From an uncultured Vicinamibacterales bacterium (GTDB taxonomy: Bacteria > Acidobacteriota > Vicinamibacteria > Vicinamibacterales > JAKQTR01): a stretch of 64,000 nucleotides of DNA. The DNA lies in assembly GCA_964358795.1 (NCBI GenBank), contig CAYHRK010000001.1, positions 1,432-65,431 on the forward strand, read 5' to 3'. Shown piece by piece: positions 10,796 to 33,203 of this stretch. A program made the position numbers and the translations under genes. The notes below the pieces were generated by a model. The model made no database searches, was not told the DNA's origin, and was given only the letters and a program-made list of their open reading frames with translations. How positions within the stretch are numbered: the first letter of the stretch is position 1; every line of letters starts with the position of its first letter.

Positions 10796-10804
10796 GTCGA
10801 GATC

Positions 10805-12061: not shown

Positions 12062-12795
12062 CGGGTTCCAGCTCCCGAGCCGGTTCGCAGCCGGCCGCGG
12101 TGGCGCAACAGGAGACGCCAGGGCATGACCATCGACTCGAGCAGCACGCGTCCCGACATCTTCGATGCGCCCTGCCGGCGCTCGACATAGATGATCGGCA
12201 CTTCGGTGATGCGGCAGCCCAGGCGCGCCGCCTCGAACAGGGTTTCCACCATGAAGGCGTAGCGCTGCGACAGGATGCGATCGAGCGGAAGTCTGGCCAG
12301 CGCCTCTCGCCGCCAGCACCGGAATCCGCTGGTGGTATCTCGGGGGGACAGGCCGGTGACGGCCCGTACGTAGCCGTTGGCAAACGTGCTCAGCACGATG
12401 CGTTGCAGCGGCCAGTTCACCACGCTGATGCCGTTGAGGTACCGGGATCCCAGCACCAGATCGTAGTCCCGTGTCGCTTCGATCAGATCGGGCAGGTAGC
12501 GTGGATCGTGCGAGAAGTCGGCGTCCATCTGGCAGATGAGCTCAGCGCCGCTTTGCAGAGCCCACCCGAACCCATCCACGTACGACAAGCCGAGACCGCG
12601 CGGGCCTGTGCGGTGCAGCACGTCAAGCCGTCCCGGGTGGGCGCGCGCCAGTTCATCGGCGATCGCGCCGGTGCCGTCGGGCGACTGGTCATCCACCACC
12701 AGGATCCGGAACGGGTGCGCGTCGAGAATCTGGCGCGCGAGCACCGGCAGGTTCTCGCACTCGTTGTAGGTCGGGATGATGACGAGGACACGCAT
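12058..12795 (-). CDS. GT2 polyprenol/dolichol-phosphate mannose synthase-like (Ppm1/Dpm1 family)
   Basis: 245 aa from ATG at 12795 (MRVLVIIPTYNECENL). Motifs VVDDQSPDGT, QMDADFSHDP. The 359-aa track ORF is a 5' extension into the upstream gene. Confidence 0.85.
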   Translation of the reverse strand: MRVLVIIPTYNECENLPVLARQILDAHPFRILVVDDQSPDGTGAIADELARAHPGRLDVLHRTGPRGLGLSYVDGFGWALQSGAELICQMDADFSHDPRYLPDLIEATRDYDLVLGSRYLNGISVVNWPLQRIVLSTFANGYVRAVTGLSPRDTTSGFRCWRREALARLPLDRILSQRYAFMVETLFEAARLGCRITEVPIIYVERRQGASKMSGRVLLESMVMPWRLLLRHRGRLRTGSGAGTR

Positions 12796-12803
12796 GCCAG
12801 AGG

Positions 12804-14102: not shown

Positions 14103-14107
14103 GATGC

Positions 14108-17023: not shown

Positions 17024-17040
17024 ACGCGCCGATCACCGTA

Positions 17041-18144: not shown

Positions 18145-18306
18145 GCGCAGTCTCGCGAGTAACAGATGGCGGCGTGCCGCCCGAGGCCAGAATTCAACAT
18201 CGTAGCACGCGGATGCGACCTGACATCCTGGTAGGCTGAGCGTTTAAAGGCGAAGAAAAAGCGTAGACCATCACCGCTAACTTCAACAACTGATTGGATT
18301 TTGCGA

Positions 18307-18335
18307 TTGACAAGGTCGCCGCCGTCTCTTAACAT
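18307..18335 (+). promoter_or_regulatory. Candidate sigma-70 promoter of the dcw cluster (TTGACA-N17-TAACAT)
   Basis: TTGACA at 18307-18312, a 17-nt spacer, and TAACAT at 18330-18335. It lies in a locally AT-richer patch about 25 nt upstream of the mraZ start. Confidence 0.5.
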
Positions 18336-18339
18336 CCGG

Positions 18340-18366
18340 GTGGTCTCTGGTGGAGTAAAGTGGACG
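18340..18366 (+). promoter_or_regulatory. Putative MraZ operator: three direct GTGG repeats with exact 10-bp phasing
   Basis: GTGG at 18340, 18350 and 18360 (GTGGTCTCTG GTGGAGTAAA GTGGACG). The third copy reads AAAGTGG and contains the mraZ GTG start codon. The SD GGAG (18352-18355) lies inside the array. Confidence 0.5.
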
Positions 18367-18815
18367 AAATCACAGCTCTTCGCGGGAACGCTCCGGCCAA
18401 GATAGACGAGAAAGGCCGGCTGAAGATCCCCACAGGGTTTCGCACAGTTGTCGAGGCGCAGCATGGCCGCGACGTCTTTGTGACGAGCCTGACCGGTGAA
18501 TCGGTACGAATCTACCCGATGCCGGTGTGGGTTGACATCGAACGCAAGCTGGCACAAATACCAACCACCCACCCTTCTCGCCTGCGCTTCTTCAGCCGCG
18601 TCAACTACTACGGACAAGCCGCCGATCTGGACAACCAGGGCCGCGTGTTGATCCACCAGCGGCTGCGTGAGTCGGCAGGCATGGCGGGCGAGGTGGATGT
18701 GTTTGGCCAGTACGACCATCTCGAAGTGTGGAACCACGAGCGCTTCGTCGCCAAACTCGCGAACGATCCATTCACCGACGAAGACGCCCGCGCGCTGGCG
18801 CAGTTCGGAATCTGA
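18360..18815 (+). CDS. mraZ: Transcriptional regulator MraZ
   Basis: 151 aa with a GTG start. Two MraZ/AbrB-like half domains (KIDEKGRLKIP and DNQGRVLIHQRL). First gene of the dcw cluster. Confidence 0.9.
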   Translation: MDEITALRGNAPAKIDEKGRLKIPTGFRTVVEAQHGRDVFVTSLTGESVRIYPMPVWVDIERKLAQIPTTHPSRLRFFSRVNYYGQAADLDNQGRVLIHQRLRESAGMAGEVDVFGQYDHLEVWNHERFVAKLANDPFTDEDARALAQFGI

Positions 18816-18838
18816 CCAGATCGACGGGTGCCGATTCC

Positions 18839-19720
18839 ATGTCCGTACACGTGCCTGTCATGACCGCCGAGGTCCTGACCTGCCTGTCTCCCGAACGAGG
18901 GGGCACGTACGTCGATTGCACGGTGGGCTTGGGCGGACACGCACGGGCGCTGTTGCAAGGCGGCGCGGCGCGACTGATAGGCCTCGACCGCGACCCCGAC
19001 GCGTTGCATATCGCACGGGAGGCGCTCGCCGAATGGGGCGACCGCGTGGAGTTGGTGCACGCCGACTACAGAGAGCTACCGCGCGTCCTGGACGAACGAG
19101 GGATCGAACTGGTCGACGGCGCCATCGCCGATCTGGGTCTGTCCTCGCTGCAGCTCGACCAGCCCGGGCGCGGATTCAGCTTTCAGCGCGACGAGCCCCT
19201 CGACATGCGGATGGACACGACCGGCGGCCTGACAGCGGCGGACCTGATCGCACGGGCCAGCGAAGTGGAGCTGGCCGACGCGATCTACCACCTGGGCGAG
19301 GAACGGCGTGCGCGGGCCGTCGCGCGGGCCATTGTCGCGACCAGGGGTGCGGCACCCATCCGCACCACCGGACAGCTGGCCTCGCTGGTCCGTCGCGTGG
19401 TGCGGCAGAGCGGGCGGATCGATCCCGCGACGCGCACCTTCCAGGGCATTCGAATCTGGGTGAACGCAGAACTGGAACGGCTCGAAGCCTTCCTGCGCGC
19501 CCTCTGCGCCCGGCTGCGCATCGAAGCGCGGTTCGCGGTCATCACGTTCCACTCGCTCGAGGATCGGCCCGTGAAACACACCTTCCGGGCCATCACGCAA
19601 GAACAGCGGCAGGAGTTCCGCCTGGTGACGAGGAAGTCGATCGTGCCGGGCGACGACGAGGTGCGGCGCAACCCGCGCGCGCGCAGTGCGCGGCTTCGCG
19701 CCATCGAACGGATTGGGTGA
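18839..19720 (+). CDS. rsmH: 16S rRNA (cytosine1402-N4)-methyltransferase RsmH
   Basis: 293 aa from ATG at 18839 (MSVHVPVMTAEVL). Motifs GGTYVDCTVGLGGHA, DLGLSSLQLD, ITFHSLEDR. Confidence 0.9.
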   Translation: MSVHVPVMTAEVLTCLSPERGGTYVDCTVGLGGHARALLQGGAARLIGLDRDPDALHIAREALAEWGDRVELVHADYRELPRVLDERGIELVDGAIADLGLSSLQLDQPGRGFSFQRDEPLDMRMDTTGGLTAADLIARASEVELADAIYHLGEERRARAVARAIVATRGAAPIRTTGQLASLVRRVVRQSGRIDPATRTFQGIRIWVNAELERLEAFLRALCARLRIEARFAVITFHSLEDRPVKHTFRAITQEQRQEFRLVTRKSIVPGDDEVRRNPRARSARLRAIERIG

Positions 19721-19725
19721 CGCAC

Positions 19726-20133
19726 ATGGCACCGACTCGCGATGCGGCCGACACCATCGACTTCGCCGTTCAGAAGAGCATTCATAACCACGCCGTGCGC
19801 GAAGTGGATCGTGAGCGCCAACGCGAGATGTGGATCACGGTGTGCGTGATTGCGGGATTCGTCATCGCGGCGTTGGGATCGGTGTGGGCGCCGTCCGAAC
19901 TGTTGCAGCTGGGCTACAAGGTCGAGCAGTTACGTGAGCGGCGCGCGGCCGAGGAGTCCGACAACCGGCAACTGCGTCTCGAATGGGAGACGCTGCGGGC
20001 ACCGGGGCGTATCGAGAGGCTGGCCACCGGCCAGCCACTGAATCTCGTAGCGCCGGGACAGACCGAGGCCATCGTCATTCAGCGCGTCAGGCAAGACGCG
20101 GCGCCATCGCGCGCGCTGGTCGCGCGACGGTAG
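19726..20133 (+). CDS. ftsL: Cell division protein FtsL-like
   Basis: 135 aa from ATG at 19726. A single TM helix (MWITVCVIAGFVIAALGSVW) followed by a coiled-coil-like segment. Sits in the canonical slot between rsmH and ftsI. Confidence 0.7.
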   Translation: MAPTRDAADTIDFAVQKSIHNHAVREVDRERQREMWITVCVIAGFVIAALGSVWAPSELLQLGYKVEQLRERRAAEESDNRQLRLEWETLRAPGRIERLATGQPLNLVAPGQTEAIVIQRVRQDAAPSRALVARR

Positions 20134-20178
20134 GTCGAGCACCTGCGGGGATCTGGCCGGCGCGTCCGGTCTGGAGAC

Positions 20179-22209
20179 ATGGTTGTGGCTGATTCACCTG
20201 AATCCACCTGGCAGTCGATCGTCCGGACGCGCCTGTTCGTGATCGCGACGGTCTTTGTCGTGTGGGCCGTGGCCGTCGAGTCTCGCCTGGTCTGGCTGCA
20301 GGTGTATCAGCACGACCACTTCGTCACGCGGGCGGCGAACCAGCAGAAGAGAACCGCCACCGTGGCTCCCCGCCGTGGCGACATCGTGGACCGGCACGGG
20401 CGTCCACTCGCGATCAGCGTGGATGCCGACACGATTGCCGCGGTTCCCAGGGACATCGACAACCCGCAGGCCACCGTCGACGCGGTGTGCGCGGCGCTTC
20501 AGGACTGCGTGCCCAAGGAGCGGGAGGTGTACCTGCGGCGCCTGCTGCGCACGAACGGGTCGATTTATCTCCGGCGCCAGATCACGTCAGAACAGGCCGC
20601 GCGCGTGACGGCGCTGAAACTGCCTGGCATCGGTCTGGTCACCGAGACCAAGCGGTTCTATCCCAACCGCGAGCTGGCGGCGCACGTGCTCGGCTTCGTC
20701 AACGTGGACAATCACGGCGGGGGCGGAATCGAAGCGGCCTACGACTCTCGCATCAGCGGGTTGCCGGGCAAGATCCTGATCGAAACCGACGGGAAGCGTC
20801 ACGCCTACCGGGCTATGGAACAGCCGCCCACCGCGGGCGCGACCGTCGAACTGACACTCGACGCCTATCTGCAGCACATGGTGGAGCGCGAACTCCACGC
20901 GGGCATCATCGCAAGCCGAGCCGCCGCCGGGACGGCCCTCATGATGAATCCGCGCACGGGTGAAATCCTGGCGCTCGCCAACGAGCCTACCTTCAACCCC
21001 AACGCCATCCGCGATGCGAAACAAGACCATCTCCGCAACCGGGCCGTGGCGGAGATCTACGAACCCGGCTCGACCTTCAAGGTCGTCACGGCCTCGGCGG
21101 CGATCGAAGAGCAGATGTTCCGCTCCAACGATCCGATTGACGTCAGCGCCGGCTCCATCCGCATCGGCTCCCGCGTCGTGAATGACGATCATCGGATTGC
21201 CGGCGAGCTCAGCTTTACCGACGTGATCGTCAAGTCGAGCAACGTCGGCGCCATCAAAGTCGGGTTAACGCTGGGTGCCGAGCGGCTGGGTCGCTATGTG
21301 CGCCGCTTCGGGTTCGGTGCGAAGCTGTGCCCGGACGTTGCCGGCGAAACGCCGGGCCGATTGTCGGACCCGGGCCAGTGGACCGAGAGCACGCTGGCCT
21401 CGGTCTCGATGGGCTACGAGATCGGCGTCTCGCCGCTGCAGATGGCCACCGCCGTGTCGTCGGTCGCCAACGGCGGCCTGCTCATTCAGCCACGCATCGT
21501 CCGAGCGCTGCGGACCGGGACCGGGCGTCGCGAAATCGAACCCAACGAAATGCGTCGTTCCATCAACCCGGACACGTCTGCCGAGCTGACCACCATCATG
21601 GAGCAAGTGGTGGAGCGCGGCACCGGCACGAAGGCGCAGATCCCGGGCTACACGATTGCCGGCAAGACGGGAACGGCGGGAAAGGTGGTCAAGGGCGGGT
21701 ACTCGAAAACCGACTACTTCGCCTCGTTCGTGGGCTTCGCGCCGTCGCGTGAGCCCGCCTTCACCATCCTCGTCGTGATCGATTCGCCCCACGCCGGGTC
21801 CATCTACGGTGGTACGGTTGCCGCACCCATCTTCAAGCGCATCGCCGAGGCGGCCCTCCGCCATCTTGGGATCGCGCCCACCTTGAATCCCGCGCCGCCC
21901 GTCATCGTGACCGCCTCGTCTGGTCCCGGCCAGGTCACCCGAGCGGTCGCCGCCGCGTCGGTGCCGGTCCGGAGCACCGGCAGGGACGTGGTGACCGGCC
22001 CGCCAACGGTGCCCGATGTGCGCGGCCTTGGCGCGCGCGAGGCGATCGTGCGCCTGGCGCGGCTGGGCCTGTTCGCGCGCGTGACGGGCGACGGCGTGGT
22101 GATCGATCAGGATCCGGCCGCCGGCGCCCCGCTGCAACCAGGAGCCGCGTGTCGGCTGTGGCTCGATCGTGTCGTGATGATTCCGCCGCCGGCGTCCATC
22201 CAGCCATGA
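20179..22209 (+). CDS. ftsI: Peptidoglycan D,D-transpeptidase FtsI (class B PBP) with C-terminal PASTA domain
   Basis: 676 aa. N-terminal TM helix. Transpeptidase motifs STFK (EPGSTFKV), SSN (KSSNVG) and KTG (GKTGTA). PASTA-like tail VPDVRGLGAREAIVRLARLGLFARVTGDGVVIDQDPAAG. Confidence 0.9.
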   Translation: MVVADSPESTWQSIVRTRLFVIATVFVVWAVAVESRLVWLQVYQHDHFVTRAANQQKRTATVAPRRGDIVDRHGRPLAISVDADTIAAVPRDIDNPQATVDAVCAALQDCVPKEREVYLRRLLRTNGSIYLRRQITSEQAARVTALKLPGIGLVTETKRFYPNRELAAHVLGFVNVDNHGGGGIEAAYDSRISGLPGKILIETDGKRHAYRAMEQPPTAGATVELTLDAYLQHMVERELHAGIIASRAAAGTALMMNPRTGEILALANEPTFNPNAIRDAKQDHLRNRAVAEIYEPGSTFKVVTASAAIEEQMFRSNDPIDVSAGSIRIGSRVVNDDHRIAGELSFTDVIVKSSNVGAIKVGLTLGAERLGRYVRRFGFGAKLCPDVAGETPGRLSDPGQWTESTLASVSMGYEIGVSPLQMATAVSSVANGGLLIQPRIVRALRTGTGRREIEPNEMRRSINPDTSAELTTIMEQVVERGTGTKAQIPGYTIAGKTGTAGKVVKGGYSKTDYFASFVGFAPSREPAFTILVVIDSPHAGSIYGGTVAAPIFKRIAEAALRHLGIAPTLNPAPPVIVTASSGPGQVTRAVAAASVPVRSTGRDVVTGPPTVPDVRGLGAREAIVRLARLGLFARVTGDGVVIDQDPAAGAPLQPGAACRLWLDRVVMIPPPASIQP

Positions 22210-23762
22210 CGCTACGCGACCTCCTCAGCGCGCTCGAGCCGTGCGATACGGACACCGGCACACCCGTCTCGATGGACAGCAGCGCCGTCTGGTCGCAAGA
22301 GGTCGCCGGCGTGGCCTACGATTCTCGAAACGTCAGGCCGGCCACGCTCTTTGTCGGATTGCGGGGCCAGCATGCCGACGGATCGACCTTCGCCGGCCAG
22401 GCCATCGCCAGCGGCGCGATCGCGGTGGTCTCCGAGCAGGCGCCCCCCGCGGCTACCGCCGTCCCATGGGTGCGCGTACGAGACGGGCGGCTGGCGTTGG
22501 CCCGCCTGGCAGCGGGTTTCTACGGTCATCCCAGCCGCGCGATGCAGGTGGTGGGCATCACGGGGACCAACGGCAAGACCACGACCGCGTACCTGGTCCG
22601 CGACGTGCTCGAGGCCGGCGGGCTTCGATGCGGGCTGCTCGGCACCGTGCAGTACCGCATTGGTTCAGAGGTGCGCGAGGCGTCGCGCACGACACCCGAG
22701 GCGGTCGACCTGCAGCAGATGCTGCGCGACATGGCCGACGCCGGCTGCCGCGCCTGCGCGATGGAAGTCTCCTCGCACGCGCTCGCGTTGAGACGGGTGG
22801 ACCAGACCCGGTTTGCCGCCGGCGTCTTCACCAACTTGACGCGCGACCACCTCGATTTCCATCAGGATCTGGAGCGCTACTTCGCCGCCAAACGCCGGTT
22901 GTTCGATCTGCTGCCGCCTGGCGCCCCCGCCATCCTCAATGCCGACGACCCGCGCGTCGCCGCGCTGGCGACCGAACGGTCGGCAGCGATCACGTATGGC
23001 ATCAGTCAGACGGCCGACCTCCGGCCGGTGTCCTTACCCGACTCACTGATGGCCCTGTCGTTCGACGTGCGAACACCGGCCGGCATCTTGGCGATCCGGT
23101 CTCGCCTGGCGGGCCTCTTCAACGTCTACAACCTACTGGCCGCCGCGGCGACGGGCGTCGGCCTGGGTCTGCCGCTTCCCGCGATCGAGGCCGGGCTGGC
23201 GGCCCTCACCGACGTGCCTGGCCGGTTTCAGGTGGTGTCGTCAGCCGGCGATGACATCGCCGTCATCGTCGACTACGCCCACACCGACGATGCCTTGAAA
23301 AACCTGCTGGAGGCGGCGCGGCCGCTGGCCGCCGCTCGGCTGATCACCGTGTTTGGCTGTGGCGGCGACCGCGATCGCACCAAGCGGCCGCTGATGGGTG
23401 CGGTAGCCGCGCGGCTGAGCGACCTGGTGGTGCTGACGTCCGACAATCCACGATCGGAAGATCCGGATCTGATCATCGACGACATCGAACGGGGCATCGC
23501 GCCTGCACCCGATCGAACCCGGCCATCAGCCGGCGCGCCGCCGTCGGCGCGCGACCGGGCAGGCACGCCGCGGTTGCGCGTGACCGATCGGCGGGCGGCG
23601 ATCGCGCGAGCGATCGGTGACGCCGGCACAGGCGATCTGGTGGTGATAGCCGGCAAGGGTCACGAGCAGTCCCAGGTTCTGCGCGATCGGGTGCTGCCGT
23701 TCGACGACGTGGCGGTTGCGCGCGAGGAGCTGTCCCGGCGTCGTGTGGAGGTCGCACGGTGA
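22206..23762 (+). CDS. murE: UDP-N-acetylmuramoyl-L-alanyl-D-glutamate--2,6-diaminopimelate ligase
   Basis: 518 aa from ATG at 22206 (ATGA overlap with the ftsI stop). Motifs GITGTNGKTTT and DNPRSEDP (a DNPR meso-DAP-type determinant). Confidence 0.9.
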   Translation: MTLRDLLSALEPCDTDTGTPVSMDSSAVWSQEVAGVAYDSRNVRPATLFVGLRGQHADGSTFAGQAIASGAIAVVSEQAPPAATAVPWVRVRDGRLALARLAAGFYGHPSRAMQVVGITGTNGKTTTAYLVRDVLEAGGLRCGLLGTVQYRIGSEVREASRTTPEAVDLQQMLRDMADAGCRACAMEVSSHALALRRVDQTRFAAGVFTNLTRDHLDFHQDLERYFAAKRRLFDLLPPGAPAILNADDPRVAALATERSAAITYGISQTADLRPVSLPDSLMALSFDVRTPAGILAIRSRLAGLFNVYNLLAAAATGVGLGLPLPAIEAGLAALTDVPGRFQVVSSAGDDIAVIVDYAHTDDALKNLLEAARPLAAARLITVFGCGGDRDRTKRPLMGAVAARLSDLVVLTSDNPRSEDPDLIIDDIERGIAPAPDRTRPSAGAPPSARDRAGTPRLRVTDRRAAIARAIGDAGTGDLVVIAGKGHEQSQVLRDRVLPFDDVAVAREELSRRRVEVAR

Positions 23763-25171
23763 GCGCCCGTGTAGAACTGACCGCCGCCTCGGTGGCCGCA
23801 GCCATGTCGGGCGCGTTGCTGTCCGGATCGCCATCGGCGCCGATTGGCGACGTCTCGATTGATTCACGCACGCTCGGTCCTGGCAGTCTCTTTGTCGCCA
23901 TTTTGGGCGAGCGGTTCGATGGGCACCGCTTCGTCGGCGCGGCGCTGGGATCGGGCGCCTGCGGTGTGGTGGTGTCGGAGCTGTCGGCGGTGCCGCCCGC
24001 CGCGACACAGACGGCCATCGTGATTCACGTGGCCGACACGACGCGCGCGTTGCAGGCGCTCTCACAATCGGTGCGCCGCAGGTCTGGCGCCAAGGTCGTG
24101 GCTGTCACCGGGAGCGCAGGCAAGACCACGACCAAGGAGGTCGCGGCTGAGTTGCTCGCCACGCGCTACCGGGTGTTCCGGACCAAGGGCAACTTCAATA
24201 ACCACATCGGGCTGCCGTTGTCGCTGCTGGAGTTGCGCGACGGCCCCGACATCGCCGTGGTGGAACTGGGCATGAGCCACGCCGGCGAGATTCGGATGCT
24301 GGTTGGACTGGCCGAGCCAGACGTGCGCGTGTGGACCAACGTCGCCGAGGTGCACGCCGCGTATTTCAGCTCCATCGACGCCATCGCGGACGCGAAGGCC
24401 GAAATCCTGGACGGCGCCACATCCGACACGGTGGTGGTCGCCAACGCCGCCGACGCGCGGGTGATGGTTCGCGTGCGCGGGTGTGCCGCTCGGATCGTGA
24501 CGTTCGGCGTGGAGGTGGACGCCGACGTGTCGGCCAGCGGCGTTGTCGATGCCGGCATCGGAGGCACGACGGCCACCGTGTCCACGCCGGCTGGCCGGGC
24601 CGAATTCCGCGTGCCGCTGGTCGGCCGCGGGCATCTGTCCAACGTCCTGGCGGCGACGGCGGTCGCGCTGCAGTTCGGCGTGCCGATTGAAGACATCGCC
24701 GCGCGAGTCTCCGGGCTCACCCCGGCCCCGCGGCGCGGCGAGGTGTGGCGGCTGCGAGACGACGTGGTGCTCGTCGACGATTCGTACAACTCGAATCCGG
24801 TCGCGCTGGAACGCATGCTCGACGTTCTGGGTGCAAGCGATCTCGCTCGACGCCGTGTGGCCGTGCTGGGCGAGATGCTCGAACTGGGTGCGCAGTCCGT
24901 TGCGTGGCACCAAGCGTGTGGCGCCGCGGCGGCCCGCGCCGGCGTGTCGGTGCTGGTTGCGGTTGGCGGACTGGCGGCGCGGGCCATGGCGACGGCCGCC
25001 ACCGAGGCTGGGATGGATCCGGCCGCCGTTCTGCACGTGGAGACCAGTGAAGAAGCGGCCGCCCATGTCGCGCATCTGCTGCGGGCAGGAGACATCGTGT
25101 TGGTGAAGGGGTCGCGAGCGATCCGTACGGACCTTGTGGCGGACCGGGTGAAAGCAGAACGGGCCTCATGA
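23759..25171 (+). CDS. murF: UDP-N-acetylmuramoyl-tripeptide--D-alanyl-D-alanine ligase
   Basis: 470 aa. GTG start in a GTGA overlap with the murE stop. Motifs VTGSAGKTTTKE and DDSYNSNP. Confidence 0.9.
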   Translation: MSARVELTAASVAAAMSGALLSGSPSAPIGDVSIDSRTLGPGSLFVAILGERFDGHRFVGAALGSGACGVVVSELSAVPPAATQTAIVIHVADTTRALQALSQSVRRRSGAKVVAVTGSAGKTTTKEVAAELLATRYRVFRTKGNFNNHIGLPLSLLELRDGPDIAVVELGMSHAGEIRMLVGLAEPDVRVWTNVAEVHAAYFSSIDAIADAKAEILDGATSDTVVVANAADARVMVRVRGCAARIVTFGVEVDADVSASGVVDAGIGGTTATVSTPAGRAEFRVPLVGRGHLSNVLAATAVALQFGVPIEDIAARVSGLTPAPRRGEVWRLRDDVVLVDDSYNSNPVALERMLDVLGASDLARRRVAVLGEMLELGAQSVAWHQACGAAAARAGVSVLVAVGGLAARAMATAATEAGMDPAAVLHVETSEEAAAHVAHLLRAGDIVLVKGSRAIRTDLVADRVKAERAS

Positions 25172-25196
25172 GGACGGCGTGCAGGAGCCAATCGGC

Positions 25197-26585
25197 ATGA
25201 GCGAGTTCAGCGTGCGTGGAACGCGAGTCGTGGTGGTGGGCGGCGCCGCCAGCGGCACGGCCGCCGCCCGCCTGCTCGCCGAGCGCGGCGCGCGCGTCAC
25301 GCTGACGGACGTGCGGCCGGCCATCGACGGCCAGGATGCCCTGCGGCTGATCGGCGTCGATCTGGTGCTTGGCGCCAATCCGCCCGACCTGTTAGCCCAC
25401 GCCGGTCTGGTGATCGTGAGCCCCGGAGTGCCCCTCACACACCCGGCCATCCAAGCCGCCCGACAGTGCGGCGTGCCCGTGCTGGGCGAAATCGAACTGG
25501 CATCACGCTGGCTTCGAGGCCGCATGGTGGCGATTACCGGGACCAAGGGGAAATCGACGACGACCGCCTTGACGGGTCGCATCCTGGCGCAGGCCGGATT
25601 CGACGCACCAGTTGGCGGCAACATCGGCACGCCGCTGTCGTCGTACGTGAGCGCCTCTCGCCCCGACACGATCCACGTGGTGGAGGTGAGCAGCTTCCAA
25701 CTGGAAACGACCGACACGTTTCACCCCTGGATTGCGGCGCTGCTCAATGTGACGGCCGACCATCTCGACCGTTACGCGAATCTGCAGGAGTACGCGCGTG
25801 CCAAGGCCCGAATCTTTGCACAGCAGACCGAAGCGGACTGGGCCGTAGTGAATGCCGACGATCCGCAGACGCTGGCCCTGGCCAGCCAGGGGCGCGCACG
25901 GCAGACCGCCTTTGCCAGACATGCCGCGATCGACGCCGGCGTCACGGTCGATCACGATTGGGTCGTGGAGGTGGCCGGTGGCACATCGACGCATCTGGTG
26001 CACACATCGGATGTGCGCCTGATCGGACAGCACCTGTTGTCGGATGTGCTGGCGGCGGCCGCCATCGCGCGGCTGGCCGGGGTGTCTGCCGAGGCGATCG
26101 CGCAGGCCGTCTCGTCGTTTCGCGGCCTCGAACACGCCATGGAATGGGTGGACGACATCCGCGGCGTGCGGTTCGTGAACGACTCGAAGGCCACCAACGT
26201 GGACGCGGCGGCGCAGGCGATTGAGACGTTCGAGCCAGGGCTGGTGGTGATCATGGGCGGCAAGTTCAAGGGGGGCGACCTGCGCACGCTTCGACCGCGC
26301 CTGGCGTCGCGGATGGCCACGGTGGTCGCGATTGGAGAAGCCCGGCCACTGATTCACGACGCCTTTGACGGCGGTGTGACGGTGGTCGACGCCACCACGA
26401 TGGCCGACGCCGTGCGGGCCGCCTTCGCCGCGGCGTCGCCTGGTGCCAGCGTACTGCTGGCCCCGGCGTGCGCCAGTTTCGACATGTTCGAGAACTACGC
26501 GGCGCGCGGCCTGGCGTTCAAGGCAGAGGTGGCGCGGCTGCGGGTGGAGCGTGGAGAGGGAGGCCGCATCGTGACAACGGCGTGA
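25197..26585 (+). CDS. murD: UDP-N-acetylmuramoylalanine--D-glutamate ligase
   Basis: ATG at 25197 preceded by GGAG (25183-25186); the track start is GTG at 25179. Motifs VVVGGAASGTAAARLL and ITGTKGKSTTTAL. Follows murF directly, with no mraY between them. Confidence 0.9.
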   Translation: MSEFSVRGTRVVVVGGAASGTAAARLLAERGARVTLTDVRPAIDGQDALRLIGVDLVLGANPPDLLAHAGLVIVSPGVPLTHPAIQAARQCGVPVLGEIELASRWLRGRMVAITGTKGKSTTTALTGRILAQAGFDAPVGGNIGTPLSSYVSASRPDTIHVVEVSSFQLETTDTFHPWIAALLNVTADHLDRYANLQEYARAKARIFAQQTEADWAVVNADDPQTLALASQGRARQTAFARHAAIDAGVTVDHDWVVEVAGGTSTHLVHTSDVRLIGQHLLSDVLAAAAIARLAGVSAEAIAQAVSSFRGLEHAMEWVDDIRGVRFVNDSKATNVDAAAQAIETFEPGLVVIMGGKFKGGDLRTLRPRLASRMATVVAIGEARPLIHDAFDGGVTVVDATTMADAVRAAFAAASPGASVLLAPACASFDMFENYAARGLAFKAEVARLRVERGEGGRIVTTA

Positions 26586-26709
26586 GCCGTGAGCAGTCGT
26601 CAGTCGGCTCAAGACGGCATGGAACTGGCTGCTGGGAACCCGCGCCGCCCCGGCGCGGGAAGCTGGTGTCCGTGCCTCTCGGGCTGACTGATGACTGCTG
26701 ACGGCTCAC
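26582..26709. repeat. 128-bp element bounded by a 27/28-bp near-perfect inverted repeat, enclosing a 9-bp GC hairpin
   Basis: Left arm GTGAGCCGTGAGCAGTCGTCAGTCGGC (26582-26608). The reverse complement of the right arm (26682-26709) is GTGAGCCGTCAGCAGTCATCAGTCAGCC. As plus-strand RNA this gives 24 Watson-Crick pairs, 2 G-U pairs and 1 mismatch. Inner hairpin CCCGCGCCG/CGGCGCGGG at 26639-26659. Confidence 0.8.
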
Positions 26710-26713
26710 ACCC

Positions 26714-26787
26714 GGACCTCCAACAGAGGTCCAGGTCGCTGACGCCTCTAGAGTTGTCGGCAGCAGCGGGCTAAGACTGTAGCCCGC
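26714..26787 (+). other. Two further short stem-loops in the murD-ftsW spacer
   Basis: GGACCTC-caaca-GAGGTCC at 26714-26732. GCGGGCT-aagactgt-AGCCCGC at 26766-26787, ending 11 nt before the ftsW ATG. Confidence 0.6.
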
Positions 26788-26798
26788 AGGTAGGGACG

Positions 26799-27902
26799 AT
26801 GGCAAGGAAACTGAAGTCGGATCGCGTGCTGTTCTTCACCACGATTGGCCTGGTCGCCACCAGCGTCGTGATGGTCTATAGCGCGTCGAACGTGGTGGCG
26901 CTGGATCAGTACGGCCGGCCCAGCTGGTTTCTGGTCAAACAATGTGTCTTCGCCTGCCTGGGTCTGGCGGCCATGGCGCTGGCCATGCACGTCAACTACC
27001 GCGTGTATAAGCTGCCGGCGGTTCTCAAGCCGCTGCTGGTTGTCACATTGCTGGCGCTGGTGGGCGTGCTCTTCCTGGGTCCGAGGATCAACAACACGCA
27101 CCGATGGTATGTCGTGGCGGGTATCAGCCTGCAACCGTCGGAACTGGCCAAGCTGGCGACGGCGATCTTCGCCGCCTTCATGCTCGAACGCCGCATGGAT
27201 CGCATCGACAGCATCCGCCAGACCCTGCTGCCCATCGGGATCCCGCTCATCATCGTCATTGCCCTGATCACGAGCCAGCCGGACTTCGGCAGCGCATTGG
27301 CCGTGCTGGCCATCGTAGGCGTGATGATGTTCGCCGCCGGCCTCTCGTACCGGTACCTGGCGGGAATCGTCCTCTGCACGATCCCGCTGGTGACAGCGCT
27401 GGTGCTCTATGAGCCGTACCGGCTACGCCGGTGGACCGCGTTCTGGAATCCCGAACTGGATCCGCGCGGGGACAGCTTCCAGGTGATGCAATCGCTCATC
27501 GCCGTGGGGACCGGCGGCGTGACAGGCCGCGGTCTGAGTGAAGGCGTGCAGAAACTGTGGTACCTGCCGTACGCACACACGGACTTCATCTATGCCGTCA
27601 TTGCGGAGGAACTGGGCCTGATCGGTGCGACCGTCGTGCTGTTGTGCTTTTGTGTGATTGCCTGGCGCGGTCTTCGCATCGCGTCGCATGCGCCAGACGC
27701 CTTCGCCTCGCTGCTCGCGTTGGGGCTGACGGTGATGGTCGCGCTGCAGGCGTTTGTGAACATCAGCGTGGTGCTGGGTCTGGTGCCGACCAAGGGCATT
27801 CCGCTGCCATTTGTCAGTGCCGGAGGGTCGTCGCTCGTCGCGAGCCTGTTCGGCATGGGCATGCTGCTCAATATTTCGCAGCACGCTTCGGCGGAAGGCT
27901 GA
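26799..27902 (+). CDS. ftsW: Peptidoglycan glycosyltransferase FtsW (SEDS family)
   Basis: 367 aa, polytopic. Motifs SLQPSELAKL, SQPDFGSAL, LPYAHTDFIYAVIAEELG, KGIPLPFVSAGGSS. Confidence 0.9.
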   Translation: MARKLKSDRVLFFTTIGLVATSVVMVYSASNVVALDQYGRPSWFLVKQCVFACLGLAAMALAMHVNYRVYKLPAVLKPLLVVTLLALVGVLFLGPRINNTHRWYVVAGISLQPSELAKLATAIFAAFMLERRMDRIDSIRQTLLPIGIPLIIVIALITSQPDFGSALAVLAIVGVMMFAAGLSYRYLAGIVLCTIPLVTALVLYEPYRLRRWTAFWNPELDPRGDSFQVMQSLIAVGTGGVTGRGLSEGVQKLWYLPYAHTDFIYAVIAEELGLIGATVVLLCFCVIAWRGLRIASHAPDAFASLLALGLTVMVALQAFVNISVVLGLVPTKGIPLPFVSAGGSSLVASLFGMGMLLNISQHASAEG

Positions 27903-27912
27903 GGCGCCATCG

Positions 27913-29343
<1,431 letters not shown>

Positions 29344-29344
29344 C

Positions 29345-30232
29345 ATGGCCGTGACGGTGCCGTCGGACAAGCACTTTCGACGCAGCCGGATTCACGCCAC
29401 GCGGCGCAGCCATCTGCGCGCGAAGCCGGTCGTCCGTGTCATCCGCGCGGTGCTGGGGCTGTGCGTGCTGGCGGCCGGCGGCTACGTGGCGGCACAAGCG
29501 GCCGTCGATATGCTCGGACTGCGCGTGCGCCACATCACCGTGCACGGGAACCAGCGGGTGTCCACAGTGGAGGTGCTCAATCTGCTGGAAGGACTGAACG
29601 GCGACAGCCTGATGACGACCGACCTCGATCGCTGGCGCGCCCGTTTGTTCGCGTCGCCCTGGGTAGCCGACGCCCGCTTCCGGCGCCGGTTGCCTGCCAC
29701 GATCGACGTGGAGATTCGTGAACGACAGCCGGCCGGCATTGCCCGCATCGGCAACGAACTGCACTTGATCGACGCTGGCGCGACACCCATCGACGAGTTC
29801 GGGCCCCGCTACGCCGACTGCGACCTGCCGATGATTGACGGTCTCGTGGTGGATCGGTCGGCCATCAAGCCCCAGATCGACCGCGCGCGCAGCCAGTTGG
29901 TGATGCGGCTGTTGACCGATCTCAGCGGGCATCCGGATCTGGCGAAGCGGGTGTCACAGATAGACGTCAGCGATGCGCACGACGTGCACGTGATCCTGGA
30001 CGGCGACACGGCCGTCCTGCGGCTCGGCGACATGAAGTTTGCCGAGCGTCTCGGTTCGTACGTGGAGCTGCAGGCGGCGCTGCGCGAGCGTGTGCCCGAC
30101 ATCGACTACGTGGATCTTCGCTTCGGCGAGCGCGTCTACGTCGGCCCGTCGCACACGGCGGCGTCGCAGGCGCCCGCCACGAACACCACGCCGCCGCCAG
30201 CCCGTGATGCGGGCGCGCGGCGGCAGCAGTAG
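29345..30232 (+). CDS. ftsQ: Cell division protein FtsQ (POTRA domain)
   Basis: 295 aa from ATG at 29345, 1 nt after the murC stop. Basic N-terminus, a TM helix (VIRAVLGLCVLAAGGYVAA), the POTRA-like ITVHGNQRVSTVEVLNLL, and a Pro-rich tail. Confidence 0.8.
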   Translation: MAVTVPSDKHFRRSRIHATRRSHLRAKPVVRVIRAVLGLCVLAAGGYVAAQAAVDMLGLRVRHITVHGNQRVSTVEVLNLLEGLNGDSLMTTDLDRWRARLFASPWVADARFRRRLPATIDVEIRERQPAGIARIGNELHLIDAGATPIDEFGPRYADCDLPMIDGLVVDRSAIKPQIDRARSQLVMRLLTDLSGHPDLAKRVSQIDVSDAHDVHVILDGDTAVLRLGDMKFAERLGSYVELQAALRERVPDIDYVDLRFGERVYVGPSHTAASQAPATNTTPPPARDAGARRQQ

Positions 30233-30250
30233 CACCAGTCCGGAGGACAT

Positions 30251-31483
30251 GTGGGACGCAAGGAACGGCATCTGGTCGGTCTCGACATCGGCACCTCGAC
30301 GGTGGCGGCCATCGTCGGTGAGTTGGTGGACGGCAATCAGATCGAGATTATCGGACTGGGCGTGGCCGAATCGCATGGGATCCGGCGCGGAGCCGTAGTC
30401 GACCTCGACGCCGCCGTCGACTCGATTCGCAAGGCCATCGACGAGGCCGAACTGACCGCTGGCGCCGAGATCGACAATGTGTTTCTGGGTCTGTCTGGCA
30501 CGCATATCAAGGGATTCAACAGCCGCGGCGTCGTGGCCGTTGCCGGCAAGAACCGGGAGATCACACGCGACGATGTGAGGCGCGCCATCGAGGCGGCGCG
30601 AGCGGTGAGCCTGCCGGTGGGCCGGGAGATTCTGCACGTGCTGCCGCAGGATTTCGTGGTGGATGACGAAGACGGCATCTGCGCTCCGGTCGGCATGACG
30701 GGATCTCGGCTTGAAGTGAACGTCCACATTGTCACGGGCCTCGCCACCACGATGCAGAACCTGGTGGCCTGCGTGAACCGCGCAGGCGTCAACGTGAAAG
30801 AGTCGGTCCTCGAGCAGTTGGCGGCCGCCGACGCGGTGCTGACCAGCGACGAGAAAGAACTCGGTGTGGCACTGGTCGACATCGGCGGTGGCACCACCGA
30901 CGTCGCGATCTACGAGCGCGGATTCCTGTGGCACACCAGCGTGACGCCCATTGGCGGCGACCATTTCACCAACGACATGGCCATCGGGCTGCGCATGCCG
31001 ATTCCCGAAGCGGAGAAGCTGAAACGCAAGTGTGGATGCGTCCTGTCCACCATGGTCGGCGACGACGAGATGATGGACGTGGCCAGTGTCGGCGGGCGCC
31101 CCTCCAGGGTGATGGCACGACGAATCCTGTCGGAAGTGCTCCAGCCGCGGGCTGAGGAGATGTTCCACCTAGTGTGGGACGAGATCAACCGGACCGGGTA
31201 CGAGAAGGCGCTCAACTCGGGGATCGTGCTTACCGGCGGCACCGTCAATCTGGAGGGCATGCCCGAGATTGCCGAACAGATCTTCGATCTGCCTGTGCGC
31301 AGGGGCATCCCGACCGGCGCCGGCAGTCTGGCCGATCACGTCAGCAACCCATCGTTTGCGGCGGCCGTGGGCCTGTTGCTGCGCGCCAGGCAGCAGAAGC
31401 TGGCGAGAGACGACGATGGGAGTGGATCCACGCTGCGCCACATCTTCAGGCGCATGAAAGTCGCGTTCAACGAACTGATGTAG
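30251..31483 (+). CDS. ftsA: Cell division protein FtsA
   Basis: 410 aa. GTG start preceded by GGAGGA. Actin-fold motifs VGLDIGTSTVAAIVGE and VDIGGGTTDVAIYE. Confidence 0.9.
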   Translation: MGRKERHLVGLDIGTSTVAAIVGELVDGNQIEIIGLGVAESHGIRRGAVVDLDAAVDSIRKAIDEAELTAGAEIDNVFLGLSGTHIKGFNSRGVVAVAGKNREITRDDVRRAIEAARAVSLPVGREILHVLPQDFVVDDEDGICAPVGMTGSRLEVNVHIVTGLATTMQNLVACVNRAGVNVKESVLEQLAAADAVLTSDEKELGVALVDIGGGTTDVAIYERGFLWHTSVTPIGGDHFTNDMAIGLRMPIPEAEKLKRKCGCVLSTMVGDDEMMDVASVGGRPSRVMARRILSEVLQPRAEEMFHLVWDEINRTGYEKALNSGIVLTGGTVNLEGMPEIAEQIFDLPVRRGIPTGAGSLADHVSNPSFAAAVGLLLRARQQKLARDDDGSGSTLRHIFRRMKVAFNELM

Positions 31484-31485
31484 CA

Positions 31486-31512
31486 CGCGGAGCCCTCGAA
31501 GGGCACACCGCG
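31486..31512 (+). other. Small stem-loop in the ftsA-ftsZ spacer
   Basis: CGCGG-a-GCCC-tcgaa-GGGC-aca-CCGCG, with no U-tract. Function unknown. Confidence 0.3.
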
Positions 31513-31547
31513 GTTGATGGCGTCGAGACGAGGAGCGGAGGCCGTTC

Positions 31548-32843
31548 ATGTCGAACCCGAACCCTGTGACACCCCTTGCCAGCGAGCGAACCGGCACGAC
31601 GCCGCTGCGGCTGACGATTGACGACTCGGAGCGTGCCGGAGCGCGCATCAAGGTGATTGGTGTCGGAGGCGGCGGCAGCAATGCCGTGAACCGTATGATG
31701 CGCGAAGGGTTTGACGGCGTGCACTTCATGGTCGCCAACACCGACGTGCAGGCGTTGCGGACCAATTCCGCGCCAGTGAAGATTCAGCTGGGTGAGAAGC
31801 TCACCAAGGGCCTTGGCGCCGGAGCGGACCCGGCCATTGGCCGGGCCGCCGCGCTCGAAGACACCGAAAAACTGATTCAGGCCCTCGACGGGGCAGACCT
31901 GGTGTTTGTCACCACCGGTCTTGGCGGCGGCACCGGTACCGGCGCGGCGCCCGTCATCGCCACGCTGGCCGCCGAAATGGGGGCGCTGACGATCGCGGTC
32001 GTCACCAAGCCATTCAAGTTCGAAGGCCGCAAGCGGGCCCTGCAGGCTGAACAGGGGCTCGCCGCCTTGCGCGAGTGTGTCGACAGTGTCATCACGATTC
32101 CAAACGATCGTCTGCTCACCAGTATCGAGCGAACCACGCCGCTGCTGGACGCCTTTGCGGCCGCCGACGATGTGCTGCGCCAGGCCATTCAAGGCATTTC
32201 GGATCTCATCCTGGTGCCGGGGTTGATCAACCTCGATTTCGCGGACGTCAGGACCATCATGACAAGCATGGGTGTGGCCGTGATGGGCACCGGCGTTGGG
32301 CAGGGCCCAGACCGCGCGGTCGAGGCCGCCAGGCGCGCCATTTCGAGCCCGCTGCTCGAGGACGCCTCCATCAACGGCGCACGTGGCGTGATCATCAACG
32401 TGACGGGTGGTCCCGATCTGTCGCTGGTCGAAGTCAGCGAGGCCGCGTCGATTGTCTACGAAGCCGCGCACGAAGAGGCCAATATCATCTTCGGCGCGGT
32501 CATCGATCCGAAGCTCGAAGGCACGGTCAAGATGACCGTGATCGCCACCGGGTTCGATCGCGCCGGCGCCAGACAAGTGGTACCGGGCAGTGCCGTCGTC
32601 ACGCCGGTGGATCTCAGCCCGTACACGTCGTGGCTGCGCGCCCGCGGCCAAGGCACCGGCGATGCCGCAGGCGCGCCAGCCCTCACGATCACCCGGCGCC
32701 ACGGTGTCGGCTTGTCCATGGCGACACCGCTGGCACTGACCATCGATCCCGAGACTGAGGATGCCGGCGGGACGGCAGAGGCAGACGGATGCTATCCGGA
32801 ACTTGAGGTGCCAGCCTTCCTGCGCCGCGTGAAACACGCATAG
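31548..32843 (+). CDS. ftsZ: Cell division protein FtsZ
   Basis: 431 aa. Motifs [13 protein letters not shown], the tubulin signature [13 protein letters not shown], and the C-terminal peptide LEVPAFLRR. Confidence 0.95.
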
Positions 32844-32887
32844 GAGCCCGCCCGAGGTGTTATCGCGACGGGTGAAGCAAGTTGTTC

Positions 32888-33060
32888 GTCACCCCCGCAC
32901 CCCGTCTGTCACCCCCGCGAAAGCGGGGGTCCAGCTCTGGATTCCCGCCCTCGCTTTCGCGAGGGCAGGCTCTTCGCGGAAATGACGAAGGGAGGGCGGG
33001 AATGACGGGATGGCGGTGCCGCTTTGCCACCGTCGCGGCTGCTGGCACCATGCCAGGGCC
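32888..33060. repeat. Cluster of nested GC-rich palindromes (REP-like intergenic repeat units)
   Basis: GTCACCCCCGC occurs twice (32888 and 32908). Hairpin ACCCCCGC-GAAA-GCGGGGGT at 32911-32930. Hairpin GCCCTCGC-TTTC-GCGAGGGC at 32947-32966. Outer pair ATTCCCGCCCTC (32941-32952) with GAGGGCGGGAAT (32992-33003). Track ORFs across this region read ...RGNDEGRAGMTG..., the sort of pseudo-peptide palindromic repeats produce. Confidence 0.7.
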
Positions 33061-33203
33061 GGGATCGCCACCGGCCGGCTCGCCGCCCCGCGCGTGGTAC
33101 ACTGAAAACACCCACCGCATCTTGGAGCGCCTGCGCTGAAGCCTGACGTGCAGAACCATTGGCGGCCGCCGGTCGGGCGGGGCGGCTGGAGAGCCGGACA
33201 CAC

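What the first reader, a model, noticed from the sequence alone, without database searches (positions are those of the whole stretch)
18360..32843. dcw cluster lacks both lipid-linked steps (mraY, murG) as well as murB and ddl, with clean junctions
Seen in sequence:
- The murF stop (25169-25171) is followed 25 nt later by the murD ATG.
- The ftsW stop (27900-27902) is followed 10 nt later by the murC ATG.
- The murC stop (29341-29343) is followed 1 nt later by the ftsQ ATG.
- No ORF in the window resembles MraY, MurG, MurB or Ddl.

Established knowledge: the widely conserved order is mraZ-rsmH-ftsL-ftsI-murE-murF-mraY-murD-ftsW-murG-murC-(murB-ddl)-ftsQ-ftsA-ftsZ. mraY and murG are among the most stably embedded members.

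Inference: lipid I/II synthesis genes have been relocated or never joined this cluster, while all four Mur ligases, the SEDS protein and the PBP remain. This changes the co-expression logic of precursor synthesis relative to the lipid cycle. A large polyprenyl-phosphate-dependent glycan operon lies just upstream.
Basis: partly seen in the sequence, partly recalled or inferred. Interest (0 to 1): 0.6.

Follow-up and report, generated by a model that had tools for sequence, protein, structure and literature searches.

The report
Cell-wall operon missing mraY and murG
In one branch of the soil and groundwater Vicinamibacterales (Acidobacteriota), the normally very stable cell-division and cell-wall operon has cleanly lost the two genes that make lipid I and lipid II. 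This is typical of that branch rather than an assembly error, and where those two genes now sit could not be found.

Summary
The window carries mraZ-rsmH-ftsL-ftsI-murE-murF-murD-ftsW-murC-ftsQ-ftsA-ftsZ with the stated junctions. No MraY, MurG, MurB or Ddl homologue occurs anywhere in the 64 kb.

It is not a misassembly. An independent groundwater contig and 10 species-level MAGs from different studies show the same compact order.

It is lineage-typical:
- The core compact clade is monophyletic.
- Its sister group and all other Vicinamibacterales keep mraY and murG in the usual places, so the genes were lost secondarily, not "never joined".
- One more distant MAG (L014) has the same double loss but branches outside, which suggests a second independent paired loss.
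- murB and ddl are absent from the cluster in every related locus, so that part is ordinary.

The relocated mraY and murG were not found. About 100 Vicinamibacterales mraY/murG contexts were all in-cluster. Compact-clade MurD ranks high in a control search, but no compact-clade MraY or MurG does. The copies must therefore be unusually divergent or foreign.

Separately, the murD-ftsW spacer holds a roughly 128-nt hairpin RNA. It is conserved, supported by covariation, and has no Rfam match.

Verdict: a new variant of a known kind, of moderate interest.

The parts
18307..18335 (+). sigma-70-like promoter candidate (TTGACA-17-TAACAT) just upstream of mraZ
   Evidence: Consensus scan, (10 of 12 matches). 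It is the only + strand site in the cluster. This is a consensus match only, not proof of function.
18360..18815 (+). mraZ
   Evidence: Pfam MraZ 2.6e-18; TIGR00242
18728..19720 (+). rsmH (mraW). This is the longest ORF; the true start is probably downstream of the mraZ stop.
   Evidence: Methyltransf_5 1.4e-98; TIGR00006 4e-91
19717..20133 (+). ftsL
   Evidence: Weak Pfam FtsL match, E 3e-4. The position and size match the ftsL called in relatives.
20179..22209 (+). ftsI (class B PBP with a C-terminal PASTA domain)
   Evidence: Transpeptidase 5e-75, PBP_dimer, PASTA
22149..23762 (+). murE (longest ORF; the family match begins near residue 49)
   Evidence: NF001126 4.9e-161
23759..25171 (+). 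murF
   Evidence: TIGR01143 6e-114
25172..25196 (+). murF-murD junction, 25 nt with an AGGAG ribosome-binding site. This is where mraY sits in relatives.
   Evidence: Sequence. No mraY remnant. In some clade members the murF stop overlaps the murD ATG.
25197..26585 (+). murD
   Evidence: TIGR01087 8.6e-126. The exact protein is also found on an independent contig.
26583..26712 (+). Conserved hairpin RNA of about 128 nt in the murD-ftsW spacer, beginning at the murD stop codon
   Evidence: Fold of the 226-nt spacer is -144 kcal/mol, z -10.2. It is present in 56 loci. 32 of 48 pairs show compensatory changes and 95% of cells are paired, against 85% in shuffles, 0 of 500 shuffles reaching the observed value. 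The covariance model hits only this spacer in Acidobacteriota loci, with the + strand scoring far above the - strand. No Rfam match.
26799..27902 (+). ftsW (SEDS glycosyltransferase)
   Evidence: TIGR02614 8.8e-112
27903..27912 (+). ftsW-murC junction, 10 nt. This is where murG sits in relatives.
   Evidence: Sequence. No murG remnant.
27913..29343 (+). murC
   Evidence: TIGR01082 1.3e-158
29345..30232 (+). ftsQ
   Evidence: POTRA_1 and FtsQ_DivIB_C
30251..31483 (+). ftsA
   Evidence: FtsA and SHS2_FTSA
31548..32843 (+). ftsZ
   Evidence: TIGR00065 1.2e-127

Best explanation
The window comes from a member of a subclade of Vicinamibacterales (Acidobacteriota). In the ancestor of that subclade, mraY and murG were each excised cleanly from an otherwise canonical dcw operon. 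All neighbouring genes stayed intact, on the same strand and tightly spaced.

What is shown:
- The loss is secondary, because the sister group and the outgroups keep both genes.
- It is fixed across the clade.
- It is not an assembly artefact.
- It leaves no pseudogene remnants.

What is inferred:
- The operon is still transcribed from a promoter upstream of mraZ.
- murF-murD, ftsW-murC and murC-ftsQ are translationally coupled through short or overlapping junctions.
- The operon now co-expresses only the cytoplasmic ligases and the divisome proteins.
- MraY and MurG, which these bacteria should still need to turn UDP-MurNAc-pentapeptide into lipid II for FtsW and FtsI, are encoded elsewhere under separate control.
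- Those unseen copies are much more divergent from the sister group's proteins than vertical descent at normal rates predicts. The likeliest history is that a second (duplicated and fast-evolving, or horizontally acquired) mraY/murG pair made the in-cluster copies dispensable, after which both were deleted.
- The same double loss in a separately branching MAG suggests the two genes tend to be replaced and lost as a pair.

Absence of murB and ddl is an older, phylum-level condition and is unrelated to this event.
For: Gene content and junctions:
-.
- No homologues in the window or in 265 kb of compact-clade loci.

Independent assemblies with the same order:
- L001, a 9-kb groundwater contig from ENA.
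- L004, L006-L012, L014 and L017, from different projects.

Standard order in relatives:
- L005, L013, L015, L016, L018, L084, L087-L091, L172, L173, L175-L178.
- 80 of 80 metagenome loci.

Synteny of the flanks is conserved between compact and standard forms: GT2-GT1-ychF | dcw | B12 radical-SAM, ACPS.

Phylogeny (neighbour-joining, 2254-2411 aa of dcw proteins):
- Core compact clade, 91-98% bootstrap.
- Core plus the standard-order L005 group, 99-100%.
- Core plus L014, 0%.
- Quartet site patterns 23: 8: 2 in favour of (core, sister) against L014.
- L014 has a different, 253-nt murF-murD junction.

Divergence argument:
- The control search with L005 MurD returns 29 compact-clade proteins among the top 120, including those of L004 and L008.
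- Searches with L005 MraY and MurG, plus about 100 inspected contexts, return none outside a dcw cluster.
- L005 MraY is 86-90% identical to its own group and 70-81% identical to the rest of the order.
Against: - The relocated mraY and murG were never found, so "encoded elsewhere" is inference from pathway logic, not observation.
- The phylogeny uses only dcw proteins, distance methods and MAG data. L014's position outside (core + sister) rests on 99% support for core + L005 but only 38-49% support for the node above it.
- A regain of both genes in the L005 group by recombination with a standard-order relative is unlikely but not formally excluded.
- Promoter and translational-coupling statements rest on consensus patterns only.
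Confidence: 0.8

Rival explanations
1. Assembly artefact. The mraY and murG segments were collapsed or skipped during metagenome assembly or binning, and the real genome has the standard order.
For: No read data were available to me.
Against: - The identical arrangement, with 100% identical proteins, occurs on an independently assembled ENA contig.
- The same order is seen in 10 species-level MAGs from different studies and assemblers, including long-read assemblies with contigs of 0.45-2 Mb.
- The junctions carry ribosome-binding sites or ATGA overlaps, as in real operons.
- There are no remnants or frame breaks.
Confidence: 0.01
2. Primitive state. mraY and murG never joined the cluster in this lineage, so the compact order is ancestral.
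For: In some other phyla the cluster is split; for example, the Poribacteria loci start at murD with nothing related upstream.
Against: - The sister group (L005, L088-L090) and all other Vicinamibacterales and Acidobacteriota loci have mraY between murF and murD, and murG between ftsW and murC. So do most other phyla sampled.
- The compact clade is nested well inside this standard-order diversity.
Confidence: 0.02
3. True absence. The clade has no canonical MraY or MurG at all. The lipid-linked steps are carried out by non-homologous or unrecognisably divergent enzymes, or the Mur/FtsW/FtsI products serve a modified pathway.
For: - No compact-clade MraY or MurG appeared among the best 120 database hits, the 80 best metagenome loci or any looked-up context. 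Compact-clade MurD is abundant in the same database.
- Both genes vanish together, twice.
Against: - From established knowledge of peptidoglycan synthesis, every bacterium known to make peptidoglycan through MurC-F and FtsW/FtsI uses MraY and MurG.
- The searches only show that the copies are not closely similar to the sister group's. Hit lists were capped at 120 of about 8000 candidates, and whole genomes could not be scanned.
- MurC-F, FtsW and FtsI are intact and 55-80% conserved across the clade, which implies that a working lipid II supply exists.
Confidence: 0.04
4. Single origin of the compact order, including L014, followed by re-insertion of mraY and murG in the L005 group by recombination with a standard-order relative.
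For: - It needs one loss event instead of two.
- Support for the node joining L014 to (core + L005) is weak, 38-49%.
Against: - It requires two precise re-insertions at the ancestral positions.
- L005-group MurD, FtsW, MurC, MurE and FtsI group with the core at 99-100%, so the segment was not replaced wholesale.
- L014's murF-murD junction (253 nt) is unlike the core's.
- Site patterns disfavour L014 + core, 2-7 sites against 23-31.
Confidence: 0.1

Closest known systems
Canonical dcw (division and cell wall) cluster, as in E. coli: mraZ-rsmH-ftsL-ftsI-murE-murF-mraY-murD-ftsW-murG-murC-ddlB-ftsQ-ftsA-ftsZ
   Same: - Same gene families in the same relative order, on the same strand.
- mraZ-rsmH at the 5' end and ftsQAZ at the 3' end.
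- Tight spacing and a promoter-like site before mraZ.
   Different: - mraY, murG and ddl are missing.
- A structured 213-nt spacer lies between murD and ftsW.
- FtsI carries a PASTA domain.
Standard-order dcw cluster of other Vicinamibacterales (for example L005 / MFD05942.bin.1.97 and the Rifle MAG MEKV01)
   Same: - Identical flanks (GT2-GT1-ychF upstream, B12 radical-SAM and ACPS downstream).
- murB and ddl are also absent from the cluster.
- The same murD-ftsW hairpin RNA is present.
- Proteins are 55-80% identical.
   Different: Those clusters keep mraY between murF and murD, and murG between ftsW and murC.
Reduced dcw clusters in other lineages: the Bacillus-type cluster that lacks murF, murC and ddl (from my own knowledge), and the split Poribacteria cluster seen here
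   Same: - They show that individual Mur genes can leave the cluster while the rest stays syntenic.
- A murF-less variant also occurs inside Vicinamibacterales, where murE is directly followed by mraY in about 10 of 80 metagenome loci.
- PMC8871954 notes that murC, murB and ddlB are often found outside the cluster, and that many taxa are characterised by the lack of specific cluster genes.
   Different: - In those variants mraY and/or murG stay in the cluster.
- Here it is exactly the two lipid-linked steps that are gone, while all four ligases stay.

Membership tests
dcw (division and cell wall) gene cluster | mraZ-rsmH(mraW)-ftsL-ftsI block at the 5' end, all on one strand | tested here: met
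   The ftsL match is weak, E 3e-4, but the position is conserved.
dcw (division and cell wall) gene cluster | Mur ligase genes murE, murF, murD and murC in canonical relative order, with ftsW between murD and murC | tested here: met
   NCBIfam equivalog or subfamily models score above their cut-offs for murE, murF, murD, murC and ftsW.
dcw (division and cell wall) gene cluster | ftsQ-ftsA-ftsZ at the 3' end | tested here: met
dcw (division and cell wall) gene cluster | mraY between murF and murD, and murG between ftsW and murC (the canonical core) | tested here: not met
   The junctions are 25 nt and 10 nt. There is no homologue in the window by tblastn or profile HMM.
Compact dcw variant of a Vicinamibacterales subclade (defined here) | murF directly followed by murD and ftsW directly followed by murC, with otherwise standard order and the same flanks | tested here: met
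   The window plus L001, L004, L006-L012 and L017.
Compact dcw variant of a Vicinamibacterales subclade (defined here) | Membership of the monophyletic core clade | tested here: met
   The window groups with L009 (97%) inside the core clade (91-98% bootstrap).
Complete peptidoglycan lipid II pathway | Presence of MraY (PF00953) and MurG (GT28) somewhere in the genome | not testable with these tools
   - Only 64 kb of this genome and 21-kb pieces of relatives were readable.
- Indirect searches did not find the genes.
Known Rfam RNA families (for the murD-ftsW hairpin) | Covariance-model match at or near the gathering score | tested here: not met
   cmscan of 17500-33500 at E<=1 gave only three chance-level hits elsewhere and none at 26583-26712.

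The most novel reading that the evidence does not exclude
The compact-clade Vicinamibacterales have no canonical MraY or MurG anywhere in their genomes. The paired loss, seen twice, would then mark replacement of the two lipid-linked peptidoglycan steps by non-homologous or unrecognisably divergent enzymes, while MurC-F, FtsW and FtsI are retained.

A milder version is much more likely, perhaps 0.3-0.4. In it, a horizontally acquired or fast-evolving mraY-murG module displaced the native essential genes as a pair.
Probability: 0.04. Interest if true: 0.95.

Novelty: new variant of a known kind. Interest (0 to 1): 0.45.

Why it matters
The dcw cluster is one of the most conserved gene arrangements in bacteria, and mraY and murG belong to its stable core.

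This is a whole environmental clade that removed exactly the two membrane steps (lipid I and lipid II synthesis) while keeping every cytoplasmic ligase and the FtsW/FtsI synthase. That shows co-location of precursor synthesis and the lipid cycle is not obligatory.

It also offers a natural comparison, compact clade against its standard-order sister group, for asking what the operon arrangement is good for.

Three points raise a testable question about replacement of essential cell-wall genes, possibly as a functional pair:
- The double loss seems to have happened twice.
- A murF-less variant occurs in the same order.
- The replacement genes look unusually divergent.

MraY and MurG are antibiotic targets, so divergent versions would be of practical interest.

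The conserved hairpin RNA upstream of ftsW is a candidate lineage-specific regulatory element inside the operon.

Tried and rejected
1. Searching for the relocated genes.
- Protein searches with the sister group's MraY and MurG were capped at 120 listed hits.
- Ten hits were looked up: P0043, P0112, P0003, P0125, P0124, P0194, P0190, P0444, P0071 and P0090. They were chosen from distinct tree branches, long contigs or NCBI sources. All sit in standard dcw clusters.
- The metagenome scan with MraY gave 80 of 80 loci in-cluster.

2. The exhaustive representative search with MraY. Clusters at 50% identity are far too broad for this conserved protein. The top hit, P0241, is a frameshifted MraY-MurD read-through and therefore standard order.

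3. Walking beyond the window with an end gene. No exact record was found, probably because the gene caller chose a different start codon.

4. tblastn of MraY against plasmids. It returned only chromids and mislabelled chromosomes, so it was uninformative.

5. Remnant search at the junctions, including L014's 253-nt gap, found nothing.

6. The hairpin as a dispersed REP- or MITE-like repeat was rejected. There is one copy in 64 kb, always at the same spacer.

7. The hairpin as an intrinsic terminator was rejected. No U-run follows it.

8. The literature search found no description of this variant. The key comparative paper, Megrian et al. 2022, is cited in the library but not held in it.


Full report
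**What is in the window**

The region 18360-32843 is a single-strand operon-like block in a 66% G+C genome. Pfam and NCBIfam identify mraZ, rsmH, ftsI (with a C-terminal PASTA domain), murE, murF, murD, ftsW, murC, ftsQ, ftsA and ftsZ with strong scores. The 138-codon ORF at 19717-20133 is a weak FtsL match in the expected slot.

- murF stop at 25169-25171, then 25 nt, then murD ATG at 25197.
- ftsW stop at 27900-27902, then 10 nt, then murC ATG at 27913.
- murC stop at 29341-29343, then 1 nt, then ftsQ ATG at 29345.

Each downstream start is preceded by a purine-rich Shine-Dalgarno-like stretch. The only + strand sigma-70-like site in the block lies just before mraZ, at 18307-18335.

**Absence of MraY, MurG, MurB and Ddl**

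E. coli reference proteins were taken from NC_000913.3. Their best tblastn hit in the 64-kb window has E 0.15.

They give no hit at E<=10 against any six-frame ORF of the window or of ten related compact loci. They score 1e-212 and 1e-184 on the positive control L005.

Pfam scans of about 58 window ORFs show no PF00953 and no GT28 domain.

**Not an artefact**

The exact MurD protein of the window is also encoded on an independently assembled 9-kb ENA groundwater contig (ERZ1292635, "Hain_H43"). That contig has the same order, murE-murF-murD-ftsW-murC-ftsQ-ftsA, and 100% identical proteins.

I scanned one genome per species of bacteria and archaea with MurD and mapped genes by tblastn. The same compact order appears in ten MAGs labelled Acidobacteriota or Vicinamibacterales: L004, L006, L007, L008, L009, L010, L011, L012, L014 and L017. 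Their MurD is 58-73% identical to the window's. They come from different projects, and some are long-read assemblies with contigs of 0.45-2 Mb.

No mraY or murG remnant exists in 265 kb of these loci. In several of them the murF stop overlaps the murD start as ATGA.

**Lineage context**

Other Vicinamibacterales-type loci carry the canonical order with mraY and murG. These are:
- L005, L013, L015, L016 and L018 from genomes.
- L084, L087-L091, L172, L173 and L175-L178 from look-ups.
- All 80 loci of a metagenome scan.

Most loci from other phyla have the canonical order too.

None of the Acidobacteriota loci, compact or standard, has murB or ddl in the cluster. That part of the finding is a broad lineage trait. 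The literature also notes that murC, murB and ddlB are often outside the cluster (PMC8871954).

Flanking genes are the same in compact and standard genomes: GT2, GT1 and ychF on the opposite strand upstream, and a B12-binding radical-SAM gene and ACPS downstream. So only the two genes were removed. The proximal part of the upstream glycan operon (GT2-GT1-ychF) is shared with standard-order relatives and is not specific to the compact form.

**Phylogeny**

I built neighbour-joining trees on 2254-2411 aligned residues of concatenated dcw proteins.
- The core compact clade is monophyletic (window, L006-L011, L017; 91-98% bootstrap).
- The standard-order L005 group is its sister (99-100%).
- There is 0% support for L014 joining the core.

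Counts of quartet site patterns favour (core, sister) over the alternatives that involve L014, by 23: 8: 2 and, at looser thresholds, 31: 11: 7. Rates relative to the outgroups are similar, so long-branch attraction is not an obvious problem. L014 also has a different, 253-nt non-coding murF-murD junction.

The most parsimonious reading has two parts:
- mraY and murG were ancestrally in the cluster and were lost together in the ancestor of the core clade.
- They were lost together again, independently, in the L014 lineage.

No locus with only one of the two genes missing was seen among the Vicinamibacterales-type loci.

Caveats: these are distance trees, built from dcw genes only, on MAG data. 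The node above (core + L005) is weakly supported.

**Where are mraY and murG?**

This could not be determined.

Protein-database searches with the sister group's MraY and MurG list only the best 120 of about 8000 candidates. I used trees of those hits to choose look-ups from distinct branches. Every one lay in a standard cluster. The 80 best metagenome MraY loci (72-80% identity) are all followed by murD.

As a control I ran the same kind of search with the sister group's MurD. It returns 29 compact-clade proteins among its top 120, including the very proteins of L004 and L008. Compact-clade organisms are therefore well represented in the database, and they rank high for an ordinary dcw gene.

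L005's MraY is 86-90% identical within its own group and 70-81% identical to the rest of the order. A vertically inherited, normally evolving compact-clade MraY should therefore have appeared near the top of the list. It did not.

The copies must be markedly more divergent than expected, either fast-evolving after relocation or acquired from outside the order, or else they are absent. I rate true absence as very unlikely (about 4%). MurC-F, FtsW and FtsI are intact and conserved, and no peptidoglycan pathway is known to work without MraY and MurG. This last point is established knowledge, not something tested here.

**How it most likely works**

Shown:
- The operon keeps the cytoplasmic ligases and the divisome proteins.
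- It lacks the lipid I and lipid II enzymes.

Inferred:
- Transcription starts upstream of mraZ.
- Short or overlapping junctions couple translation across the former insertion points.
- MraY and MurG are expressed from another locus, which uncouples the lipid cycle from the division operon.
- A second mraY/murG pair probably arose or arrived first and made the in-cluster copies dispensable. This would explain why the two genes disappear together.

**Additional structure inside the finding's coordinates**

The murD-ftsW spacer (213 nt) is not a clean junction. It contains a near-perfect hairpin of about 128 nt at 26583-26712, which starts at the murD stop codon. The fold of the 226-nt spacer is -144 kcal/mol, with z = -10.2 against shuffles.

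The same element occurs at the same place in 56 Vicinamibacterales/Acidobacteriota-type loci, whether compact or standard.

In a 46-sequence alignment the evidence for structure is strong:
- The consensus has 48 pairs, and 32 of them show compensatory changes.
- 95.1% of cells are paired, against 85.1% in shuffles; 0 of 500 shuffles reach the observed value.
- Controls in which partners are slid by 1-3 columns drop to 27-47% paired.

A covariance model finds the element only in that spacer, including in eight loci not used to build the model. Scores are 83-133 bits on the + strand for full-length matches (64-105 bits where the contig ends inside the element) and 27-52 bits on the - strand. It finds nothing in about 33 dcw loci of other phyla.

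There is one copy in the window, no Rfam match and no U-tract after it. Invariant unpaired GCUGGGAA and CCCC loops suggest a binding site.

The element is best read as a lineage-specific structured RNA within the operon transcript, just upstream of ftsW. Its function is unknown. Candidates are a processing, stability or translational-control element that separates the murE-murD part of the operon from the ftsW-ftsZ part.

**Verdict**

The loss is secondary and typical of the lineage, the "never joined" alternative is rejected, and relocation is plausible but unproven.

It is a new variant of a known kind of gene cluster. It is moderately interesting for three reasons:
- The core genes mraY and murG are the ones affected.
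- The paired loss seems to recur.
- The replacement genes appear unusually divergent.

Noticed in passing
window 26583-26712 (+), also the murD-ftsW spacer of L004-L018, L084, L089-L091, L093-L172: A structured RNA hairpin of about 128 nt, conserved and strongly supported by covariation, lies between murD and ftsW. It is present in all Vicinamibacterales/Acidobacteriota-type dcw loci examined and absent from dcw loci of other phyla. It has no Rfam match. The internal loop GCUGGGAA and the apical loop CCCC are invariant.
   Followed up: yes
window ~26770-26795; equivalent positions in L004-L012, L017, L005, L089, L090, L097, L111: A short conserved motif, (A/G)CTTTAGGG, lies about 3-40 nt upstream of the ftsW start in most relatives. 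In the window it is degenerate (…CTGTAGCCCGCAGGTAGGG). It could be a promoter -10-like or ribosome-binding element for ftsW.
   Followed up: no
L095, L096, L097, L116, L125, L126, L147, L154, L159, L161 (metagenome loci): This is another dcw variant in the same order. murE is directly followed by mraY, so murF is missing from the cluster. It occurs in about 10 of 80 Vicinamibacterales-type metagenome loci. Dropout of genes from the cluster therefore seems recurrent in this order.
   Followed up: partly
L014:9749-10000: The separately branching compact MAG has a 253-nt non-coding gap between murF and murD, unlike the 0-50 nt in the core clade. It has no detectable mraY remnant.
   Followed up: partly
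L026, L028, L030, L034-L040, L042, L061 (Poribacteria): In these loci the cluster starts at murD (murD-ftsW-murG-murC…ftsA-ftsZ). No murE, murF or mraY lies in the 10 kb upstream. This is a split dcw cluster in another phylum.
   Followed up: no
window 1-17032 (-): A large glycan-synthesis operon lies on the opposite strand. It comprises a flippase-like Polysacc_synt protein, a radical-SAM/SPASM protein, two epimerases/dehydratases, a DegT aminotransferase, four GT2 and two GT1/GT4 glycosyltransferases, and three large ORFs with no Pfam match (4064-5281 +, 5395-7923 -, 12804-14501 -). No initiating phosphoglycosyl transferase was recognised.
   Followed up: partly
window 50518-51946 (-): divIVA and a YggS/YlmE-type PLP-binding gene sit together about 18 kb downstream of ftsZ on the opposite strand. 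In many bacteria these genes directly follow ftsZ.
   Followed up: no
window 61508-62845 (-): This membrane protein combines DUF92 with a CTP_transf_1 (cytidylyltransferase / polyprenol-kinase-like) region. It may be relevant to lipid-carrier metabolism.
   Followed up: no
L174 (ENA ERZ28563660 scaffold_232): This contig carries the same MurD as the Rifle MAG, but the dcw cluster breaks off right after murD into amidase and toxin-antitoxin genes. It is probably a chimeric assembly or a rearranged strain.
   Followed up: no
proteins P0258, P0263, P0268, P0280, P0295, P0303: Several MraY cluster representatives from unknown organisms are 490-545 aa long. They have an insertion of about 130 residues between the two halves of the MraY fold (sequences).
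   Followed up: no
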